The notes under the pieces were generated by a model. The model was given only the letters and a program-made list of their open reading frames with translations, was not told where the DNA came from and did not search any database. A DNA stretch of 64,000 nucleotides, from positions 6,688,001-6,752,000 of the forward strand of contig OZ001293.3 of assembly GCA_963921275.4 (NCBI GenBank). Direction: 5' to 3'. Source of the stretch: an uncultured Hormoscilla sp. (GTDB lineage: Bacteria; Cyanobacteriota; Cyanobacteriia; Cyanobacteriales; Desertifilaceae). Of the stretch, positions 1 through 64,000 are shown piece after piece (the stretch's first letter is position 1; each line of letters begins with the position of its first letter). The position numbers and the translations under genes are program-made.

Positions 1-3000
1 ACGGCATCCGGCCTGGGGCCAAATCTTTCCTCTTAGACCTTCGGTCCGATGGCATCAAACAGATCGGCGAACTTCTCCGACAGCATCGAGAAACCGAGGT
101 TCTGCACCTACTTTCCCACGGCAGCCCTGGCTGTCTGTATCTGGGAAACTCCCAACTGAGTTTAGATACTCTAGGAGATTACGCCTCTACCCTGCAGAAG
201 TGGAAAGTAAAACAACTCCTACTCTACGGCTGTAACGTCGCCGCCGGAGATGCAGGAGAGGAGTTGATGACTAAGCTACAGGCCCTGACCGGGGCATCCC
301 TCGCCGCCTCTACTACCCGGACAGGGGCAGCAGCCCGGGGCGGAAATTGGAAGTTGGAGTGGCGAACTCCGGGGATGAAAACTCCCTTAGCATTGTCCGC
401 AGAAGCTCAGATGGCCTATGGGGGCATATTGATCTCCCAGCAGGAGTATCAGGCCTTAAGGGCTCTCTATCAAAGCACCAATGGAACTTCTTGGATTAAC
501 AATACAGGCTGGCGGGACTGGAATTTCAACAGCCCAACTCCCCCCAATGATTCTGTTTTTAATCGTTGGCATGGAGTGACGGTAGTTAACGACAGGTGAC
601 GAAACTCTGGCTGTTCTCCAACCAACTGACTGGCAGCATCCCGACGGAGTTAGGGAATCTTTCCAATTTGAACAATCTCGCGCTGTTCGACAACCAACTG
701 ACTGGCAGCATCCCGACGGAGTTAGGGAATCTTTCCAATTTGGAGTTTCTCTGGCTGTACTCCAACCAACTGACTGGCAGCATCCCGACGGAGTTAGGGA
801 ATCTTTCCAATTTGGAGTTTCTCTACCTGAACAACAACCTCCTGACTGGCACCATCCCCCAAGGGGGTCATAGATTTGAGGGCTAACAAGCAATTGGAAA
901 ACCCCCCTTATGTTTTAACCGAGATTCCCGACGTCCAACTCTTGCTAGGTAATAACCTCAACATAGACATTAGCGCAAATTTCGGCGACATCAATAACAA
1001 CATCAACAACTACACAGCTACCGGTTTACCAGGGGGCGTAACCATCAACTCTCAGGGAGTTATCAGCGGTATCCCTACTACCGCAGACACCTTTACCGTG
1101 ACGGTAACCGCCATCGACAGAGCGAAATCTGAAGTGACAGATACCTTTGATATTGTTATAAAGAACTCCCCTCCTACCGATCTAGAACTCAGCAGCAGTA
1201 GCATTGATGAAAATTCCCCTGATAATGCAGTCGTAGGGACTTTCTCAACTATCGATCCTGACTCTTCCGATACCTTTACCTACCAGTTAGTCACAGGCGA
1301 CGGTGACAATAATAACGAAGCCTTCACCATAGAAGGGAACTCACTGCAAATTAACAGTTCCCCTGACTTTGAGACCAAGTCGAGTTACAGCATCCGCGTC
1401 CAAACTACCGACTCTACTGGGAACAGTTACTCTGAGGCCTTTACTATTAACGTCAATGATGTTGCCGAACGTCCCACCGACATCGAACTCTCTAGCAACA
1501 GCATTGATGAAAACTCCCCTGATAATGCAGTCGTGGGGACTTTCTCCACTAGCGACGAAGATAATGGAGATACCTTTACCTACCAGTTAGTCACAGGCGA
1601 CGGTGACGATGATAACGACGCCTTCACCATAGAAGGGAACTCACTGCAAATTAACAGTTCCCCTGACTTTGAGACCCAGTCCAGTTACAGCATCCGCGTC
1701 CAGACTACTGATGCTGGTGGGCTTAGTTACTCGGAGGCTTTTACTATTAATGTCAACAATGTCAACTCCTCTCCTACCGACCTAGTCCTTAGCAACAGCA
1801 GCATTGATGAAAACTCCCCTGATAATGCAGTCGTAGGGACTTTCTCAACTACCGATCCTGACGCTGACGATACCTTTACCTATCAGTTAGTCTCCGGCGC
1901 CGGTGCTGATGATAACGCCGCCTTCACCATAGTAGGGGACCAATTGCGAATTAACAGTTCTTTGGACTTTGAGACCCAGTCCAGTTACCTCATCCGCGTC
2001 CAAACTACCGACTCTGCTGAGGTCAGTTACTCGGAGGTCTTCATGATTAACGTCAATGATGTTGCCGAGTCTCCTACGGACATAGTCCTTAGCAACCGCC
2101 GCATCAACAATAGCATCAATGAAAACTCTCCATTGGGTGCAGTTGTGGGGACTTTCTCTACTGCCGATCCTGACGATGGAGATAGCTTTACCTACGAGTT
2201 AGTCTTCGGCAACAATGCTTTTACTATAGTAGGGGACCAACTGCTAACTAACAGTTCTTTGGACTTTGAGACTCAGTCGAGTTACATCATCTTCGTTCAA
2301 ACTACCGACTCTGCTAATAATGCTTTGGAGTCGGTCTTGATTATTGACGTGAATGATGTTGCCGAATCTCCGACGGCGATCAATCTCAGCAGCAGCAGTA
2401 TTGATGAAAACTCGCCATTGGGTGCAGTTGTGGGGACTTTCAGAACTACTGACCCCGAGGATGGAGATAGCTTTACTTATATGCTTGTCTCAGGCGTTGG
2501 TGATGATGATAATGACGCTTTCACCATAGTAGGGGACTCACTGCGAATTAACAGTTCTTTGGACTTTGAGACTCAGTCGAGTTATAGCCTCCGCGTCCAG
2601 ACTACTGATGCTACTGGGGCCAGTTATGAGTCGGCTTTGACTATTAGCGTCATTGATGTTGCCGAACCTCCGACGGACATCAACCTCAGCAGCAGCAGCA
2701 TCAACGAAAATTCTCCATTGGGTGCAGTTGTGGGGACTTTGTCTACTAGCGATCCCGACGAGGGAGATAGCTTTACCTATATGCTTGTCTCGGGCAACAA
2801 TGCTTTTACTATAGTAGGGGACCAACTGCTAACTAACAGTTCTTTGGACTTTGAGACTCAGTCGAGTTACAGCCTCCGCGTCCAGACTACTGATGCTACT
2901 GGGGCCAGTTATGAGTCGGCTTTGACTATTAGCGTCATTGATGTTGCCGAACCTCCGACGGACATCAACCTCAGCAGCAGCAGCATCAACGAAAATTCTC

Positions 3001-4763
3001 CATTGGGTGCAGTTGTGGGGACTTTGTCTACTAGCGATCCCGACGAGGGAGATAGCTTTACCTATATGCTTGTCTCGGGCAACAATGCCTTTACTATAGT
3101 AGGGGACCAACTGCTAACTAACAGTTCTTTGGACTTTGAGACTCAGTCGAGTTACAACCTCCGCGTCCAGACTACTGACTCTGCTAGTAATAGTTTTGAG
3201 GAGGTCTTGACTATTAATGTTATAGATCTGGCAGAGAATTCTTCTCCTACCGATATAGTTCTTAGCAGCAGCAGCATCAACGAAAATTATTCATTGGGTA
3301 CAGTTGTGGGGACTTTGTCTACTAGCGATCCCGACGAGGGAGATAGCTTTACCTATATGCTTGTCTCGGGCAACAATGCCTTTACTATAGTAGGGGACCA
3401 ACTGCTAACTAACAGTTCTTTGGACTTTGAGACTCAGTCCAGTTACAGCCTCCGCGTCCAGACTACTGACTCTGCTAATAACAGTTATTCGGAGGTCTTG
3501 ACTATTAACGTGAATGATGTTGCAGAGAATTCCCCTCCTACTGATATAATTCTTAGCAGCAGCATCAATATCAACGAAAACTCCCCAGCCAATACTGTCG
3601 TGGGGACTTTCGGAACTACTGACCCCGACGAGGGAGATAGCTTTACCTACATGCTTGTCTCCGGCAACAATGCCTTCACCATAGTAGGGAACCAACTGCG
3701 AATTAACAATTCCCCTGACTTTGAGACTCAGTCCAGTTACAGCCTCCGCGTCCAGACTACCGACTCGACTGGGGCCAGTTACTCGGAGGTCTTGATTATT
3801 AACGTCAACGATGTCGGCGAGTCTCCTACCGACCTAGTCCTTAGCAGCAGCAGCATCAATGAAGATTCCCCTGAGGGTGCAGTTGTGGGGACTTTGTCTA
3901 CTAGCGATCCCGATAATGGAGATACTTTTACTTACCAGTTAGTCTCGGGCGACGGTGACGATGATAATGCTGCTTTCACTATAGTAGGGAACCAACTGCG
4001 AATTAACAGTTCTCCGGATTTTGAGACTCAGGAGATTTACAGGATATTCGTTCAGACTACCGACTTGACTGGGAACAGTTACTCGGAGGCTTTGATTATT
4101 AATGTGAACAATATTGCTGAGTCTCCTACTGATATAGTTCTTAGTAATGGCAGCATTAATTCTAATTCCCGTGTGGGTGCGATCGTGGGGACTTTCGGAA
4201 CTAGCGATCCGGACGGGGGAAATACCTTTACCTACCGGTTAATCTCTGGTTTTGGTGACGATGATAACGCTGCTTTCACTATAGTAGGGGACCAATTGCT
4301 AATTAACAGTTCTCCGGCTTTGGAGATGAGGTCGAGTTACAGCATCCGCGTTCAGACTATTGACGTTACTGGGGCCAGTTACTCGGAGGCTTTGATTATT
4401 AATGTGAACGATGTTGCCGAATCTCCTGCTGACCTTAACTTCAGCAATACTCGTCAACCCCTAACTTTCAACCCCCAACCCCTAACTTTATCACTCTTTG
4501 AGAAGGAGGAGGAGGACACTCTGATCGGCGGGGAGGGAAGCGATACCCTCCACGGAGGAGAGGACGCCGATCTTTTTGTCTTGGGGTCGGGCATGGGCTG
4601 GGATACTATCATAGACTTTGAAGATGGCACGGACTTTATCAGGCTAGCAGGAGGTTCTCAGGGCCTCGATACCTGGATTAATTTTGAATCGAAAACCATG
4701 GCCACCCTTCCGGGGATTGATGAGACCCTGATTAATGTCGATGATTTCACTGTGGTTAATTGA
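1..4763 (+). CDS. Large secreted adhesin-like protein, 5' end outside window: DUF4347-like N-terminus, 24-aa LRRs, Ig-like domain, 11 cadherin-like repeats, RTX-like C-terminal tail; two single-base frameshifts
   Basis: Upstream frame reads HGSPGCLYLG...LLLYGCNVAAG...GGNWKLE (DUF4347-like). ORF 596-886 has NQLTGSIPTELGNLSNL LRRs. ORF 876-4763 has 11 repeats with DFETQSSY-type cores and a DTLIGGEGSDTLHGG...DTIIDFEDGTD tail. Frame breaks near 595 and at the G5 run 863-867; the paralogue at the far end is continuous across the latter junction. Confidence 0.85.
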
Positions 4764-37387: not shown

Positions 37388-39990
37388 CTACTCATGCTTG
37401 CTACCATCAGGCATGATTGCCCCTTTCAGAGTTGCATTCCGCAGGTTAGCTCTACTCAAGTTAGCATCTATCAGCATCGCCCCATTCAGCATAGCATCAG
37501 TTAGGTTAGACCAGCTAAGTTTTGCCTGATACAAGTTGGCCGATCGCATGTCTGCTTCCCGTAGCACTGTCCAACTGGCATTTACCCGCCGCATGTTAGC
37601 CTTATAGAATATCGTCCCTTTCAGGTTGGATGGGGTCGAGCCGGGAATCGCTTCCCGACCCTCCCTTGAGGAACCGGACTTGCGATTTTCACCGCATCCG
37701 GCTACTGGGTACTAGGCCCTTTTCATAGGTAGACTTAATAGGAATTACTTCCGTTAGCCCTTGCCGCCTGTCTTTTCTTCCCTTTCCTGGTTTAGCGAGT
37801 GGTTGTTCTGATAACCGTTAGTATCACCATTTTCAAGTCAGTTTTACCAGTTATCCATACCTTATCCTCCACTTGCGTTTCGGATTAGTTCCGTGGCTTT
37901 TTAGGATTACTCATTCCAGCAGCTTCCTAGTATCACCGACCCACGTCAGCGCTGGCTACCCAGCATCATCTACATTACTGTAGATGTTATCCCAGGAATT
38001 ACCCCGGGCATTCGCTTCTTGGGCCATCCCTCCCCCCGTGGCTTGCGCTTAACATCTAACTTGTCCTGATGGACAGCACACGAGAGGTTACTTCGTTCCC
38101 TAACAACATTTCGCGATACCTTTAGGTCCACACTATACCCCGGGAGCTATTTGAGTACTATATTAGCCAGAGTCTAAAACTAATACTAGCTACCATTTCC
38201 TTTTTAGGCCAGCGCATATAGCCTTATTTCGCTGGTTCCTTATAACGAGGCTTGCACATGTTTGCCTGCTCTAACCTTGGATATCTTTCCTAGCGGCGTC
38301 ACCGGCTTAGGCTGCCAGTTATCCTACATTTGAGTCCTCGCTTAGCACCACGATGATGTCGCTTCGTAGCACCGAGGACCGGTGTCACCCCCGTACCTGG
38401 GGGGAGGGGAATTTAACCCCCATGCGGTCAGAGTTCCCGGCTAATGAAACCGGGCTAGCGTTCCGTGTTTGACCACGTTAGGCTAGAACGAATCGCACAG
38501 ATCCACTCAGGTTAGCAAAGCTCAAGTCGGCGCGACTGAGGTTAGCGGACTCCAGACTTGCCCCAATCAATATAGCATTCGTCAGGTTCGCCCCCTCTAA
38601 GTTAGCCAGACTTACGAAACTGTAAGTCTGGTTCGCCCCCTCTAAGTTAGCCCGCATTAGGGATGTCTGAAGCAGTCGCGATCTGATCAGGGTAGCATGG
38701 CGCAGATTAGCATCGGACAGTTCGATCCCGCCCAGGTTAGTTTCGCTCATGTTAGTCTGAGAGAGGTCAGCCTTCGAGAAGTCAGCTTCACTGAAATTAG
38801 CGCCACGCAAATTGCTGCCCGCTAGATCTGCTGCCATCAACTTGGCTTTACTCAAGTTTGTGCCAATTAGGTTAGCATCTTGCAATATCGCCTCAGACAG
38901 GTTGGATGGGGTCGAGCCGGGAATCGCTTCCCGACCCTCCCTTGAGGAACCGGACTTGCGATTTTCACCGCATCCGGCTACTGGGTACTAGGCCCTTTTC
39001 ATAGGTAGACTTAATAGGAATTACTTCCGTTAGCCCTTGCCGCCTGTCTTTTCTTCCCTTTCCTGGTTTAGCGAGTGGTTGTTCTGATAACCGTTAGTAT
39101 CACCATTTTCAAGTCAGTTTTACCAGTTATCCATACCTTATCCTCCACTTGCGTTTCGGATTAGTTCCGTGGCTTTTTAGGATTACTCATTCCAGCAGCT
39201 TCCTAGTATCACCGACCCACGTCAGCGCTGGCTACCCAGCATCATCTACATTACTGTAGATGTTATCCCAGGAATTACCCCGGGCATTCGCTTCTTGGGC
39301 CATCCCTCCCCCCGTGGCTTGCGCTTAACATCTAACTTGTCCTGATGGACAGCACACGAGAGGTTACTTCGTTCCCTAACAACATTTCGCGATACCTTTA
39401 GGTCCACACTATACCCCGGGAGCTATTTGAGTACTATATTAGCCAGAGTCTAAAACTAATACTAGCTACCATTTCCTTTTTAGGCCAGCGCATATAGCCT
39501 TATTTCGCTGGTTCCTTATAACGAGGCTTGCACATGTTTGCCTGCTCTAACCTTGGATATCTTTCCTAGCGGCGTCACCGGCTTAGGCTGCCAGTTATCC
39601 TACATTTGAGTCCTCGCTTAGCACCACGATGATGTCGCTTTGTAGCACCGAGGACCGGTGTCACCCCCGTACCTGGGGGGAGGGGAATTTAACCCCCATG
39701 CGGTCAGAGTTCCCGGCTAATGAAACCGGGCTAGCGTTCCGTGTTTGACCACGTTAGGCTAGAACGAATCGCACAGCACCAGTCAGGTTAGCTTCCCGTA
39801 GGTTCGCCCCCTTCAGGTTAGCGTCACTCAGGTTGACTTCCGTCATCTCCGCTTCCCGCAGGTTAACCTCCACTAGGTCAAGACCCCCCATAAAGGCCCC
39901 AGAAAGTTTCACCTTGCGAAAATCTCTTTCCCCTGCATCATATCGCTTTTTTAGTTCCTTCGCGTTCATAATTATCTCTGTCATAATCAT
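37388..39990 (-). CDS. Pentapeptide-repeat protein in three exons (39990-39775, 38903-38499, 37627-37388); 286 aa spliced from the first ATG
   Basis: Removing the two 871-nt introns gives an open frame with intact register: ...ANLTG A|NLSE AILQD... and ...ANLSG S|NLKG TIFYK..., ending GAIMPDGSKHE. Confidence 0.88.
37628..38498 (-). mobile_element. ORF-less group II intron, copy 1 (871 nt)
   Basis: 5' GUGCG; domain V AGCCGGAUGCGGUGAAAAUCGCAAGUCCGGUUC; domain VI hairpin with GCGA loop; no RT ORF. Confidence 0.93.
38904..39774 (-). mobile_element. ORF-less group II intron, copy 2 (871 nt)
   Basis: Same sequence as copy 1; one substitution noticed at 39641. Confidence 0.93.
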
Positions 39991-53522: not shown

Positions 53523-55224
53523 ATGAAAATTTCGGAAAAACAATTAAAAAATTACCATAAAAATGGCTTTTTGATTTTAGAAAATTACCTATCAAAAGCA
53601 GAAATAGATATCATCAAAACAGCAGCGGGTAAAAGACTTGAGGAGGACACATACCAGAGAGTTTTAGAAAAAAGTGGAGACACAAAATCGTACCTGGGGA
53701 TACATAAAGCTAATAAAGTGACGGATTGCTTAGGACGGCTTCCTCGACTGGTCGAGCCAGCGAAACAAATTTTAGAGAGTGACGTTTATGTCCATCAATC
53801 TAAGTTGAACCCCAAGGTTGCTTTGCAAGGCGAGCAACTAGAATGGCATACGGATTTCTGGTACTGGCAGAGAGAGGATGGTATGCCAACGCCTCGGGCA
53901 GTCACTGCTGGGATTTTCTTGGATAACGTCAATGAGTTTGTGCGATTCGTTCTAGCCTAACGTGGTCAAACACGGAACGCTAGCCCGGTTTCATTAGCCG
54001 GGAACTCTGACCGCATGGGGGTTAAATTCCCCTCCCCCCAGGTACGGGGGTGACACCGGTCCTCGGTGCTACGAAGCGACATCATCGTGGTGCTAAGCGA
54101 GGACTCAAATGTAGGATAACTGGCAGCCTAAGCCGGTGACGCCGCTAGGAAAGATATCCAAGGTTAGAGCAGGCAAACATGTGCAAGCCTCGTTATAAGG
54201 AACCAGCGAAATAAGGCTATATGCGCTGGCCTAAAAAGGAAATGGTAGCTAGTATTAGTTTTAGACTCTGGCTAATATAGTACTCAAATAGCTCCCGGGG
54301 TATAGTGTGGACCTAAAGGTATCGCGAAATGTTGTTAGGGAACGAAGTAACCTCTCGTGTGCTGTCCATCAGGACAAGTTAGATGTTAAGCGCAAGCCAC
54401 GGGGGGAGGGATGGCCCAAGAAGCGAATGCCCGGGGTAATTCCTGGGATAACATCTACAGTAATGTAGATGATGCTGGGTAGCCAGCGCTGACGTGGGTC
54501 GGTGATACTAGGAAGCTGCTGGAATGAGTAATCCTAAAAAGCCACGGAACTAATCCGAAACGCAAGTGGAGGATAAGGTATGGATAACTGGTAAAACTGA
54601 CTTGAAAATGGTGATACTAACGGTTATCAGAACAACCACTCGCTAAACCAGGAAAGGGAAGAAAAGACAGGCGGCAAGGGCTAACGGAAGTAATTCCTAT
54701 TAAGTCTACCTATGAAAAGGGCCTAGTACCCAGTAGCCGGATGCGGTGAAAATCGCAAGTCCGGTTCCTCAAGGGAGGGTCGGGAAGCGATTCCCGGCTC
54801 GACCCCATCCAATGGTCCAATGCTAATAATTCCGGGTTCTCATAACCAGTCAGCTCAATTAGAAGGCAACAACCCGTCTTCTTTGAGGGCAGAGAGCAGC
54901 TCCGAACGGGACGAAAAAGAACCTTTTTGGATGCAGTCAGTGATTCCAAAATACCCAATAGATAAGGATGCTCTTGCTAGAGTTATTGCCGAGTGCGGCA
55001 TTGTCTCGGTCAAGGGAACAGCCGGATTGGTTATATTCTTCCACAGTTGCGTGCTGCACGCAGCATTGTGCAATATGTCGCCGTGGGATCGATATGCTAT
55101 TTTTATTAGCTATAACAGTATTGAGAATAGTCTTATCAAGGCTGGAAGACCTCGTCCGGCATTCATCGCAGAATCTGAATTCAGTCCTATAGTCACAGTG
55201 TCGGATAGAGCTTTGTTAGAATAA
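53523..55224 (+). CDS. PhyH/ectoine-hydroxylase-like Fe/2OG dioxygenase in two exons (53523-53939, 54811-55224); 276 aa spliced
   Basis: YVHQSKLNPK...WHTDF..W...DGM; spliced junction FLDNVNEF|NGPMLIIPGSH; later LHA...NMSP..R. Confidence 0.88.
53940..54810 (+). mobile_element. ORF-less group II intron, copy 3 (871 nt)
   Basis: GTGCGATTCG...domain V at about 54733-54767...GACCCCATCC. Confidence 0.93.
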
Positions 55225-55257: not shown

Positions 55258-56887
55258 ATGGATTATCAGAAGACAATAAAACAAGCAAAACACAAGATCG
55301 AACCTCTTAAGCCAGATCGGTTCGTTAAAATTTCCGATCGCTCGGATAAATGTGACTTGTCCTCGTCCAGTTGGCGGTCCCTGATGAAAAATTCGTGCCT
55401 ACAGACATGGAAAGGGATGCTTCACCTAAAAGGGCCTGTGCGATTCGTTCTAGCCTAACGTGGTCAAACACGGAACGCTAGCCCGGTTTCATTAGCCGGG
55501 AACTCTGACCGCATGGGGGTTAAATTCCCCTCCCCCCAGGTACGGGGGTGACACCGGTCCTCGGTGCTACGAAGCGACATCATCGTGGTGCTAAGCGAGG
55601 ACTCAAATGTAGGATAACTGGCAGCCTAAGCCGGTGACGCCGCTAGGAAAGATATCCAAGGTTAGAGCAGGCAAACATGTGCAAGCCTCGTTATAAGGAA
55701 CCAGCGAAATAAGGCTATATGCGCTGGCCTAAAAAGGAAATGGTAGCTAGTATTAGTTTTAGACTCTGGCTAATATAGTACTCAAATAGCTCCCGGGGTA
55801 TAGTGTGGACCTAAAGGTATCGCGAAATGTTGTTAGGGAACGAAGTAACCTCTCGTGTGCTGTCCATCAGGACAAGTTAGATGTTAAGCGCAAGCCACGG
55901 GGGGAGGGATGGCCCAAGAAGCGAATGCCCGGGGTAATTCCTGGGATAACATCTACAGTAATGTAGATGATGCTGGGTAGCCAGCGCTGACGTGGGTCGG
56001 TGATACTAGGAAGCTGCTGGAATGAGTAATCCTAAAAAGCCACGGAACTAATCCGAAACGCAAGTGGAGGATAAGGTATGGATAACTGGTAAAACTGACT
56101 TGAAAATGGTGATACTAACGGTTATCAGAACAACCACTCGCTAAACCAGGAAAGGGAAGAAAAGACAGGCGGCAAGGGCTAACGGAAGTAATTCCTATTA
56201 AGTCTACCTATGAAAAGGGCCTAGTACCCAGTAGCCGGATGCGGTGAAAATCGCAAGTCCGGTTCCTCAAGGGAGGGTCGGGAAGCGATTCCCGGCTCGA
56301 CCCCATCCACAGAAATCGCACTTTACCCGATGCTTCTATACGAGATTCAGCCAAAAACGATTCTCGAAATTGGTGCTTTCACTGGTGGCTGCGCGGTTTG
56401 GCTGGCCGATCTTCTGGATGTGTTGTAGATTGAAGGTTGTATCTACTCTGTCGATATCGATCTTTCACTCCTTGAGGAGAAAGCAAAAACTGACTCTAGA
56501 ATTCATTTTGTGGAGGGAGATTGCAATAACATTCAAGCAGCTTTTCCTCCAGACTTGCTTGCTAAGCTCGCTCATCCTTGGCTTTTGGTTGAAGATGCGC
56601 ATGTAAACACAATCGGAGTCGTTGAATATATTCACAATAATGGTCTCCAGACTGGAGACTATCTTATTATTGACGACACCAACAAACTGCAGATAGAATC
56701 ATGGGGAAGTTTGGGGGAAGATGGGGAAAATAGATTGGAAGCTGTAGAACAAGGGAAGCAAAAGATAGATGAATTGAAAGCTTGGTTAATGCTTCACTCA
56801 GATGAGTATTTAATTGATACTTACTATCAAGACATGTATGGCTATAACGGAGCTAGGAGTTCAAATTATATTCTCAAAAGAGTCTAA
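55258..56887 (+). pseudogene. Second CmcI-family gene in two exons (55258-55437, 56309-56887) with in-frame TAG at 56426-56428
   Basis: Spliced KGP|TEIALYPMLLYEIQPKTILEIG aligns without gaps to paralogue KDPMQIAAYPMLLGELQPKTIIELG. Confidence 0.85.
55438..56308 (+). mobile_element. ORF-less group II intron, copy 4 (871 nt)
   Basis: Same sequence as copy 3. Confidence 0.93.
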
Positions 56888-61106: not shown

Positions 61107-64000
61107 CTAGGTCGGTAGGAGAGGAGTGCTATTCTGATCGCTCACGTAAATCTTTGAAATCCCCTGTAGGGTGACCAGGGTGTCCCTTTCAAAGTTAATC
61201 AAGGTATCTAGGCCCTGATAGACGTGAGCCAAATCTACCGTTCCGGAAAAATCGCGTCCAGCCCGATCGCGTTCAGCCCCGTCCGTATAATCTTCAAAGT
61301 CTATGATAGTACCCATCATGTCCGACTCCAGAACAAAAATATTGGCCTCTGATCCTTCGTAGAGACGATCGCTTCCATGGTTTCCGTAGACGCGATCTCT
61401 TCCCTCCCTGCCGATCAGAGTGTCCTCCTCCTCCTTCTCAAAGAGTGATAAAGTTAGGGGTTGGGGGTTGAGAGTTAGGGATTGACGAGTATTGCTGAAG
61501 TTAAGGTCGGTAGGAGAGGAGTTGACATTGTTGACATTAATAGTAAAAGCCTCCGAGTAACTAAGCCCACCAGCATCAGTAGTCTGGACGCGGATGCTGT
61601 AACTGGACTGGGTCTCAAAGTCAGGGGAACTGTTAATTTGCAGTGAGTTCCCTTCTATGGTGAAGGCGTCGTTATCATCGGCACCAGCGCCTCCGACTAA
61701 CTGGTAGGTAAAGGTATCGGAAGAGTCAGGATCGGTAGTTGAGAAAGTCCCTACGACTGCATTATCAGGGGAGTTAGAATCAATGCTGCTGCTGCTAAGG
61801 ACTAGGTCGGTAGGAGACTCGCCGACATCGTTGACATTAATAGTCAAGACCTCCTCAAAACTATTACTAGCAGAGTCAGTAGTCTGGACGCGGAGGCTGT
61901 AACTGGACTGAGTCTCAAAGTCCAAAGAACTGTTAGTTAGCAGTTGGTCCCCTACTATAGTAAAGGCATTGTTGCCCGATCCAAGCATGTAGGTAAAGCT
62001 ATCTCCCTCGTCGGGGTCAGTAGTAGACAAAGTCCCACAACTGCACCCAATGGAGAGTTAGAATCAATGCTGCTGCTGCTAAGGACTAGGTCGGTAGGAG
62101 ACTCGCCGACATCGTTGACGCTAATAGTCAAGGCTTCTGAGTAACTGTTCCCAGTAGAGTCAGTAGTCTGGACGCCGATGCTGTAACTCGATTTTCTCTC
62201 AAAGTCAGGGGAACTGTTAATTTGCAGTGAGTTCCCTTCTATGGTGAAGGCGTCGTTATCATCGGCACCAGCGCCTCCGACTAACTGGTAGGTAAAGGTA
62301 TCGGAAGAGTCAGGATCGGTAGTTGAGAAAGTCCCTACGACTGCATTATCAGGGGAGTTAGAATCAATGCTGCTGCTGCTAAGGACTAGGTCGGTAGGAG
62401 ACTCGCCGACATCGTTGACATTAATAGTCAAGACCTCCTCAAAACTATTACTAGCAGAGTCAGTAGTCTGGACGCGGAGGCTGTAACTGGACTGAGTCTC
62501 AAAGTCCAAAGAACTGTTAGTTAGCAGTTGGTCCCCTACTATAGTAAAGGCATTGTTGCCCGATCCAAGCATGTAGGTAAGCTATCTCCCTCGTCGGGGT
62601 CAGTAGTAGACAAAGTCCCCACAACTGCACCCAATGGAGAGTTAGAATCAATGCTGCTGCTGCTAAGGACTAGGTCGGTAGGAGACTCGCCGACATCGTT
62701 GACGCTAATAGTCAAGGCTTCTGAGTAACTGTTCCCAGTAGAGTCAGTAGTCTGGACGCCGATGCTGTAACTCGATTTTATCTCAAAGTCAGGGGAACTG
62801 TTAATTTGCAGTGAGTTCCCTTCTATGGTGAAGGCGTCGTTATCATCGGCACTAGCGCCTCCGATTAACTGGTAGGTAAAGGTATCGGAAGAGTCAGGAT
62901 CGGTAGTTAAGAAAGTCCCTACGACTGCATTATCAGGGGAGTTAGAATCAATGCTGCTGCTGCTAAGGACTAGGTCGGTAGGAGAGGAGTTGACATTGTT
63001 GACATTAATAGTAAAAGCCTCCGAGTAACTAAGCCCACCAGCATCAGTAGTCTGGACGCGGATGCTGTAACTGGACTGAGTCTCAAAGTCCAAAGAACTG
63101 TTAGTTAGCAGTTGGTCCCCTACTATAGTAAAGGCATTGTTGCCGGAGACAAGCATGTAGGTAAAGCTATCTCCCTCGTTGGGGTCGGTAGTAGAGAAAG
63201 TCCCTACGACTGCACCCAATGGAGAGTTAGAATCAATGCTGCTGTTGCTGAGTTCTAGATCGGTAGGAGGGGAGTTCTCTATAACAATGTCAAAGGTATC
63301 TGTCACTTCAGATTTCGCTCTGTCGATGGCGGTTACCGTCACGGTAAAGGTGTCTGCGGTAGTAGGGATACCGCTGATAACTCCCTGAGAGTTGATCGTT
63401 ACGCCCCCTGGTAAACCGGTAGCTGTGTAATTGTCGATGTTGTTATTGATGTCGCCGAAATTTGCGCTAATGTCTATGTTGAGGTTATTACCTAGCAAGA
63501 GTTGGACGTCGGGAATCTCGGTTAAAACATAAGGGGGGTTTTCCAATCGCTTTGAGGCACTCAAATCTAGAACCTCTTGGGGGATGCTGCCAGTCAGTTG
63601 GTTGTCGGACAGCTGGAGAAACTCCAAATTGGAAAGATTCCCTAACTCCGTCGGGATGCTGCCAGTCAGTTGGTTGTCGGACAGCTGGAGAAACTCCAAA
63701 TTGGAAAGATTCCCTAACTCCGTCGGGATGCTGCCAGTCAGTCGGTTTCTGTCCAGCTGGAGATCCTTCAAATTGGAAAGATTCCCTAACTCCGTCGGGA
63801 TGCTGCCAGTCAGTTGGTTGGAGTTCAGCTGGAGAAGTTGCAAATTAGAAAGATTCCCTAACTCCGTCGGGATGCTGCCAGTCAGTTGGTTGGAGAACAG
63901 CTGGAGATCCTCCAAATTGGAAAGATTCCCTAACTCCGTCGGGATGCTGCCAGTCAGTTGGTTGTCGGACAGCTGGAGAAACTCCAAATTGGAAAGATTC
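61107..64000 (-). CDS. LRR-Ig-cadherin adhesin paralogue, 5' end outside window; six cadherin-like repeats; two homopolymer frameshifts
   Basis: Same LRR and ENPPYVLTEIPDVQ...DTFDIVI block as 876-1170; frame breaks near 62580 and 62035 where sister repeats have one more A or C. Confidence 0.85.

What the first reader, a model, noticed from the sequence alone, without database searches (positions are those of the whole stretch)
54733..54813. Non-canonical 3' end: the intron appears to end ...GACCCCAUCC, not ...AY
Seen: all four copies end GACCCCATCC, followed by AAC, AAC, AAT or ACA. With a GUGCG 5' end, the host frame and motifs (A|NLSE, S|NLKG, F|NGP, P|TEIA) are restored only if the final CC belongs to the intron. 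Established: group II introns normally end in AY with the bulged A at -7/-8. Here the canonical-looking ACCCCAU would leave a +2 frameshift, and the inferred end puts the candidate branch A at -9. A tentative J2/3 GGA (54409-54411) would pair with a terminal C. Inference: a variant 3' splice-site geometry, possibly with competing AU and CC sites giving frameshifted versus functional mRNA.
Basis: partly seen in the sequence, partly recalled or inferred. Interest (0 to 1): 0.72.

Follow-up and report, generated by a model that had tools for sequence, protein, structure and literature searches.

The report
Group II intron, overlong CC end
A protein-less mobile intron found about 150 times in this cyanobacterial genome ends in CC, one base further from its predicted branch adenosine than the usual 6-7 bases, so rule-based annotation cuts it two bases early; the extra base is likely absorbed by a one-base slip of the branch helix during splicing.

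Summary
Confirmed. The 871-nt ORF-less group IIB2 intron (53940-54810) ends ...ACCCCAUCC: all 148 genomic 3' ends are invariant through the last C, 12 empty alleles fit this end and none the AU end, and host frames need it. The guessed gamma G54409 pairs with the last base in 30 of 30 families (G-C/A-U, at least 4 swaps), and a newly located EBS3 (54303) pairs with exon +1 in 27 of 30. So the predicted branch A is 8 nt from the splice site, against a published 6-7. It is a lineage trait, not peculiar to this copy: all 33 ORF-less families here and RT-coding cyanobacterial kin (ACCCCUAAY; pattern in 32 of 401 genomes) share it. CC has precedent (RmInt1) and non-AY ends occur in named IIB2 introns. 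The competing AU site is not supported. Likely mechanism: one extra C lets domain VI slip into a 2-nt bulge, which IIB2 introns were said to be unable to do; untested, no RNA data. This scan reported the same feature before on other DNA of this genome. New variant of a known kind.

The parts
53940..54810 (+). ORF-less group IIB2 intron, 871 nt, GUGCGAUUC...ACCCCAUCC (copy 1)
   Evidence: longest stop-free frame 58 aa
53514..53939 (+). 5' exon of a PhyH-family dioxygenase gene; IBS2a 53926, IBS2 53927-53931, IBS1 53934-53939
   Evidence: PF05721 profile 1-138; IBS positions from covariation
54811..55224 (+). 3' exon of the PhyH-family gene; IBS3 = A54811
   Evidence: PF05721 profile 140-211 starting at residue 1
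54194..54200 (+). EBS2a (54194) and EBS2 (54196-54200)
   Evidence: best partner columns for exon -14 (26/30) and -9..-13 (19-24/30)
54263..54268 (+). EBS1 AGACUC (target consensus GAGTCT)
   Evidence: best partner for exon -1, -3, -4, -5, -6; position -2 not recovered by the scan
54303..54303 (+). EBS3 (U), pairs with first base of the 3' exon
   Evidence: 27 of 30 families Watson-Crick, three pair types
54409..54411 (+). J2/3 GGA; gamma = G54409
   Evidence: 30 of 30 families Watson-Crick with the last intron base
54735..54766 (+). Domain V, AGC triad at 54735-54737
   Evidence: RF00029 44.4 bits; fold
54773..54806 (+). Domain VI: GGG (54773-54775) pairs with the C run; GCGA tetraloop
54802..54802 (+). 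Predicted branch adenosine, -9 from the 3' end
   Evidence: A in 320 of 320 lineage ends (the search anchored on it); same A as in the Rfam alignment; branching not shown
54803..54810 (+). 8-nt spacer CCCCAUCC; gamma' = C54810
   Evidence: invariant in 146-148 of 148 copies, conservation stops after it
55438..56308 (+). Copy 2, in a CmcI-like methyltransferase gene that has a TAG at 56426-56428
38904..39774 (-). Copy 3, in a pentapeptide-repeat gene (exon 1 39775-39969, exon 2 38499-38903)
37628..38498 (-). Copy 4, second intron of the same pentapeptide-repeat gene (exon 3 37388-37627)

Best explanation
This is a mobile ORF-less group IIB2 intron whose inserted unit ends at C54810, eight bases after the predicted branch A, and it likely splices by branching followed by a one-base slip of domain VI that takes up the extra base. 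Shown from DNA: the boundary, and the two pairings that mark it (G54409 with the last C; U54303 with the first exon base). Inferred: step 1 uses A54802 bulged from a 3-bp G-C stem (G54773-5 with C54803-5); the 3' strand then slides one base (G54773-5 with C54804-6), leaving a 2-nt A-C bulge and the same stem-to-splice-site distance as in 7-nt-spacer siblings (ACCCU-AAC versus ACCCC-U-AAC, a single added C). The next-to-last base is free to be C or A. Splicing help and retrohoming would come in trans from the genome's RT-coding IIB2 introns.
For: Boundary: 148 of 148 3' ends keep the last C, +1 is A104/G28/C10/T6; 12 non-tandem empty alleles fit GTGCG...CC, 0 fit AT or ATC ends; frames open for 80+ codons both sides at 12/1/0 of 138 sites for CC/ATC/AT ends; PhyH profile runs 138 to 140 across the junction. 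Pairings: unbiased column scan picks 54409 for the last base (30/30; next best 26/30) and 54303 for exon +1 (27/30; next best 20/32); at least 4 G-C/A-U swaps on the family tree; 8 of 8 gamma and 7 Watson-Crick + 1 wobble EBS3 pairs in 8 chosen relatives outside the genus. Slip: the two registers score -21.9 and -21.3 kcal/mol; a fourth C goes with the 8-nt spacer (33 of 33 families here, 36 of 36 outside flanks) and a fourth U with a 7-nt spacer (30 of 30 named flanks); strand shifting is shown for other 7-nt-spacer introns (PMC9294222 section 3). Helper: 93 RT matches in the genome, EBS2a-IBS2a kept in 26 of 30 families, a pair said to need the RT (PMC8643678).
Against: No RNA data: splicing, branch site and register are unobserved. 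The G-C counts for the slipped register are partly built into the search pattern and the grouping, so they show possibility only. PMC9294222 states IIB2 introns appear unable to strand-shift. A 3-bp basal stem branches poorly in vitro in IIC introns, and lengthening the spacer by one base abolished exon ligation in one O.i.I1 construct (PMC4748821). A tandem G-A fold that buries the A scores about the same (-21.5). No RT-coding intron with this domain VI was seen in the genome (65 of 93 RT matches examined; best full-length identity to 8-nt-spacer RTs 53-57%), so the helper is unidentified.
Confidence: 0.58

Rival explanations
1. Same boundary and branch A, but no switch between steps: the extra base is simply looped out of the single-stranded tail, or the 2-nt bulge is permanent, and gamma-gamma' plus EBS3-IBS3 alone pull the splice site into place.
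For: The spacer tolerates 4-nt and 53-56-nt additions in Bacillus introns (PMC9294222); tail positions -4 to -2 vary freely among families (GAC, TAA, ATC, GGC, AGC, TAC, AAC, GGT); 7-nt IIB2 siblings are said to work without shifting.
Against: The added base is always a C inside the pairing run, never a free tail base, in 33 families and 36 outside flanks, though the searches required ACCCC for the outside set; the 1-nt bulge is reported as needed for branching.
Confidence: 0.27
2. The A at -9 is not used; the intron leaves by hydrolysis or as a circle, so the spacer length is unconstrained.
For: 3-bp basal stem and an alternative tandem G-A fold (PMC4748821); no lariat was recovered for the IIB2 host intron of the Trichodesmium twintron (PMC4649490); head-to-tail CC|GTGCG junctions exist 3 times in the genome.
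Against: The A and its stem are kept across the lineage and its RT-coding kin; about 140 base-precise insertions at both ends fit complete reverse splicing of a lariat (established mechanism); the tandem copies are also explained by re-insertion at the 5' junction, where IBS1 is intact and G can pair with EBS3 U.
Confidence: 0.1
3. One reading: AU (54808) and CC (54810) are competing 3' splice sites that give frameshifted versus functional mRNA in a regulated way.
For: B.a.I2 uses two 3' sites 4 nt apart (PMC4424553); RmInt1 is imprecise at a C run; 10 of 139 sites here have a C as first exon base.
Against: 0 of 148 copies end at AU; AU is present in 1 of 33 families, and the 92%-identical relative in G004 ends AGCC; B.a.I2 has a second gamma/EBS3 set, whereas here the AU site would have G-U at gamma and U-C at EBS3.
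Confidence: 0.04
4. CC is not intron sequence but a target-site or repair footprint, or the whole intron is shifted 1-2 nt upstream.
For: All four window copies have T before GTGCG, so a 1-nt left shift keeps their proteins; 2 of 19 matched sites fit only a shifted junction.
Against: Exon -1 varies (T118, C13, G6, A2 of 139); 11 empty alleles whose 5' exon does not end in C fit only the unshifted ends; EBS1 pairs up to the base before GTGCG.
Confidence: 0.01

Closest known systems
Cyanobacterial subgroup IIB2 (CL2) group II introns (Monachello 2021, PMC8643678 Table S3; Costa 2022, PMC9294222)
   Same: GUGCGAUUC start, two extra stem-loops at the base of domain I, EBS1/2/2a/3, gamma-gamma'. 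Named members checked by their published coordinates also break the AY rule: N.sp.I4 and the T. variabilis plasmid A intron end in AUC.
   Different: Published IIB2 spacer is 7 nt (the three named plasmid members I checked have 6, 7 and 7 nt); here 8 nt. No ORF. Sequence allows the strand shift that IIB2 introns are said to lack.
RmInt1 of Sinorhizobium meliloti (class D / IIB3; PMC4238363)
   Same: Ends in CC with a G-C gamma-gamma' pair; mobile despite lacking the penultimate A.
   Different: Different class, RT-coding, described as a lone exception followed by CC in the exon; here CY is the majority end of a lineage (25 of 33 families), EBS3 is U and the spacer is 8 nt. RmInt1's spacer was not checked here.
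ORF-less IIB1 introns of Thermosynechococcus elongatus mobilised in trans (as described in PMC8643678 discussion)
   Same: Many ORF-less copies, EBS2a-IBS2a retained, RT supplied in trans (inferred here).
   Different: IIB1 with a 6-nt spacer per PMC9294222; far fewer copies (recalled: under 30) than the 320 lineage ends here.
B.a.I2 and B.c.I4 of Bacillus (shifted 3' splice sites)
   Same: 3' splice site lies downstream of the site expected from domain VI and is set by gamma-gamma' and EBS3-IBS3.
   Different: B.a.I2 alternates between two sites 4 nt apart and B.c.I4 has a 56-nt structured insertion; here one site, one extra base.

Membership tests
Group II intron | Domain V with AGC triad and domain VI | tested here: met
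   RF00029 44.4 bits, above gathering 40; fold z -3.6
Group II intron | 5' GUGYG | tested here: met
   GTGCG in 138 of 139 full copies, GTGTG in 1
Group II intron | 3' AY consensus | tested here: not met
   ends CC (146 of 148) or UC (2); a consensus with published exceptions (PMC4238363), so not disqualifying
Group II intron | 6- or 7-nt spacer from branch A to 3' splice site | tested here: not met
   8 nt in 33 of 33 families; norm from PMC4748821 and PMC9294222
Group II intron | gamma-gamma' pair | tested here: met
   30 of 30 families that retain J2/3
Group II intron | Splices as a lariat from the bulged A | not testable with these tools
   no run on record as RNA
Subgroup IIB | EBS1, EBS2 and EBS3 pair with the exons | tested here: met
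   covariation scan
Subgroup IIB2 | 5' GUGCGAUUC and extra stem-loops at the base of domain I | tested here: met
   sequence; two hairpins in both MFE and centroid folds; criteria from PMC4649490 and PMC8643678
Subgroup IIB2 | EBS2a-IBS2a pair at exon -14 | tested here: met
   26 of 30 families, four pair types
Subgroup IIB2 | Own CL2-type RT ORF in domain IV | tested here: not met
   no frame over 58 aa; RT-coding relatives with the same domain VI sit in one tree with three named IIB2 RTs, but the tree was the quick one and had no valid outgroup
Alternatively splicing intron of B.a.I2 type | Two 3' sites, each with its own gamma-gamma' and EBS3-IBS3 | tested here: not met
   only one partner column each; AU not conserved; use in RNA untested

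The most novel reading that the evidence does not exclude
An undescribed branch of cyanobacterial IIB2 introns gained one C after the branch A, and with it an 8-nt spacer and the domain VI strand-shift that IIB2 introns are held to lack; its ORF-less offshoot then dropped the penultimate A as well and became the dominant mobile element of its host. Natural 7-nt and 8-nt siblings that differ by one C would directly test whether strand shifting exists to normalise the branch-to-splice-site distance.
Probability: 0.4. Interest if true: 0.6.

Novelty: new variant of a known kind. Interest (0 to 1): 0.4.

Why it matters
Practically, the AY rule and Rfam RF00029 place the end of these introns 1-2 nt early, which makes intact host genes look frameshifted in genomes holding hundreds of copies. 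Mechanistically, the 6/7-nt spacer and the penultimate A (predicted contact with G1) are treated as near-fixed features of 3' splice-site docking; a lineage that retrohomes precisely with 8 nt and with C at n-1 shows that gamma-gamma' and EBS3-IBS3 fix the site, and offers a one-base natural pair for testing the domain VI strand-shift model. It refines a known rule rather than revealing a new system.

Tried and rejected
RNA evidence: no RNA holder listed; laying contigs of runs X1-X6 on two insertion sites showed no joint skipping the intron, only a head-to-tail 54810-to-53940 joint in X1 and X5 that matches the tandem copies in the genome; this says nothing on splicing. Intron-free orthologue of the PhyH host: not found with this query in 4 congeneric genomes (best 29% identity). 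First EBS3 guess (54284) did not covary and was dropped for 54303. A -4/-2 complementarity in the scan (30/32) cannot be a pair across one base and reflects the GAC/TAA split, so rejected. An alternative domain VI fold pairing the branch A with U scored far worse (-12.8). Pfam on six more host genes gave compatible but loosely bounded matches for MscS, GmrSD and others, nothing for 3 of the 12 exon pieces. The careful RT tree did not finish and its root row (L049) is not a reliable outgroup, so no order of events is claimed. C. watsonii locus L072 (ACCCC-TTCT) could not be assigned a spacer length from one copy. Papers not held: Simon 2008, Toor 2001. Chromosomal entries of Table S3 in PMC8643678 were not checked by name (only plasmids are available as named records); some of them may already carry the 8-nt spacer implicitly.

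Full report
Observation. The window holds four copies of an 871-nt element (53940-54810, 55438-56308, 38904-39774 minus, 37628-38498 minus), 0-1 differences apart, each matching Rfam RF00029 at 44.4 bits with the model ending on AU, two bases early. Removing GTGCG...ATCC restores all four host frames, removing only to AT or ATC does not. The PhyH host matches PF05721 positions 1-138 on one exon and 140-211 from the first residue of the other. The CmcI-like host is broken anyway by a TAG 39 codons after the junction.

Boundary, genome-wide. Anchoring on the 56 bases that stop short of the tail finds 148 ends; -6 to -3 are invariant, -2 is C in 146 and T in 2, -1 is C in 148, and +1 is A104/G28/C10/T6 with no conservation beyond. 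Of 120 distinct flank pairs from 139 full copies, 19 had some match elsewhere in the genome: 17 fit the CC end (5 are tandem self-matches, 12 are real empty alleles, 11 of them with a 5' exon not ending in C), none fits an AT or ATC end, and 2 fit only a shifted junction where the empty repeat copy differs at the last exon base. One empty allele is the intron's own domain IV (142 copies). Of 138 sites tested (1 skipped), frames open for at least 80 codons on both sides number 12, 1 and 0 for CC, ATC and AT ends; at 60 codons 23, 3 and 4. Many copies lie antisense or outside long frames (26 antisense at 60 codons).

What marks the site. The element is one of 33 families built from 265 un-nested full-length copies, out of 320 lineage ends. 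All end A-CCCC-NNNY; last two bases CC 15, CU 10, AU 8. Scanning every well-filled alignment column for complementarity in 32 of 33 families (one dropped because another intron follows it), the last base picks G54409 in J2/3 (30 of 30; 14 G-C, 16 A-U; at least 4 changes on the family tree) and exon +1 picks 54303 (27 of 30 Watson-Crick, one wobble, two mismatches; U-A, A-U and G-C types). By copies, of 210 ends whose J2/3 was located, 172 are G-C, 37 A-U and 1 A-C; 110 were not located by that pattern. The same scan recovers EBS1, EBS2 and EBS2a, which fixes the 5' site at GTGCG. These are the two pairings known to specify the 3' site in IIB introns (PMC9294222 section 3), so the 8-nt spacer does not rest on reading frames alone.

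How far it extends. An ACCCC pattern matched 32 of 401 genomes of the order, 10 of 142 genera. Outside the genus 36 distinct flanks all end ACCCC-UAAY and vary after it; most fetched examples encode 550-620-aa RTs, and one ORF-less example lies on a named Chondrocystis plasmid (L152). In 8 chosen representatives gamma pairs with the ninth base in 8 and EBS3 with the next base in 7 plus one wobble. So the 8-nt spacer is shared with RT-coding introns that keep AY; loss of the penultimate A is common in both the 7-nt group and the ORF-less lineage. This family's AUCC is the most deviant tail, also lacking the A at -3 found in 30 of 32 families, yet has the most copies.

Mechanism. Domain VI folds with GGG against the C run, the A bulged under an A-G opposition; sliding the 3' strand by one base keeps three G-C pairs and costs 0.6 kcal/mol, and a tandem G-A form is as stable. 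ACCCCUAAC is ACCCUAAC plus one C, so after the slip the distance from stem to splice site equals that of the 7-nt siblings. Costa 2022 describes exactly this 1-nt to 2-nt bulge switch for other 7-nt introns and says IIB2 introns appear unable to do it. The slip is therefore my best reading, about even against simple looping-out, and untested; the pair counts are partly imposed by the pattern. RT help in trans is inferred from the missing ORF, 93 RT matches in the genome and the kept EBS2a pair; of 65 RT matches examined, most are followed by AGUUUAAU-type ends and none by its own ACCCC-type end (three have one 740-2028 nt past the stop, read as nested insertions). The competing AU site has no support (see rivals).

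Comparison with what is known. [quoted passage not shown] By the coordinates in Table S3 of PMC8643678 (passages, section 5, supplement part 1 of 2) two of three named plasmid IIB2 introns end in AUC, with matching EBS3 and restored frames, and have 6-7-nt spacers. PMC4748821 (passages) and PMC9294222 (passages and section 3) give 6 or 7 nt as the norm, 'in most' subclasses, with Bacillus exceptions of +4 and +53/56 nt. Nine full-text searches and passages of PMC4424553, PMC4649490 (also part 1 of 5), PMC8919778, PMC4143802, PMC6224600, PMC13026550, PMC13190283 and PMC4024640 showed no description of an 8-nt branch spacer. Michel 1989, Chanfreau and Jacquier 1993, Costa 2016, Toor 2001, Simon 2008 and the Candales database were not read; given how common the RT-coding form is, curated boundary lists likely contain it unremarked.

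Verdict. Real, precise and lineage-wide; a new variant of IIB2 introns with partial precedent, reported before by this scan at other places in the same genome. Interest 0.40.

Noticed in passing
G000 whole genome: Very high group II intron load: 387 domain V matches with one pattern, 320 ends of the ORF-less lineage in 33 families, 93 RT matches; 61 of 139 full copies of this family are 100% identical to the window copy, so the spread is recent.
   Followed up: partly
window 54706/54707 (G000 copies at C1:1326652, 5180973, 6030547, 6411229): The intron's own domain IV contains its target site, and 5 copies sit inside another copy of the same family.
   Followed up: partly
G000:C1:5447656-5450268 and C1:824934-826675: Head-to-tail tandem copies (three and two) with exact CC|GTGCG junctions; fits re-insertion at the 5' junction, or a circle route.
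   Followed up: partly
window 56426-56428: In-frame TAG in the CmcI-like host gene, with methyltransferase-like sequence continuing after it: probably a pseudogene.
   Followed up: no
window 37388-39969 (-): One pentapeptide-repeat gene carries two copies; its repeated AAC CTG codons supply the IBS2a/IBS2 motif, making such genes natural targets.
   Followed up: partly
L149, L150: Named IIB2 introns N.sp.I4 and the T. variabilis plasmid A intron end in AUC, not AY, by their published coordinates.
   Followed up: yes
G000 5' exons of families F0 and F1: A at exon -15 in 68-71% of sites, outside the mapped RNA pairings and also the commonest base (50%) at sites of RT-coding-type introns: possibly a protein-read position.
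   Followed up: no
window 605-4763 and 61107-64000: Two oppositely oriented long repeat-protein genes with 72-nt and about 300-nt units; the right-hand one is split over three ORFs.
   Followed up: no
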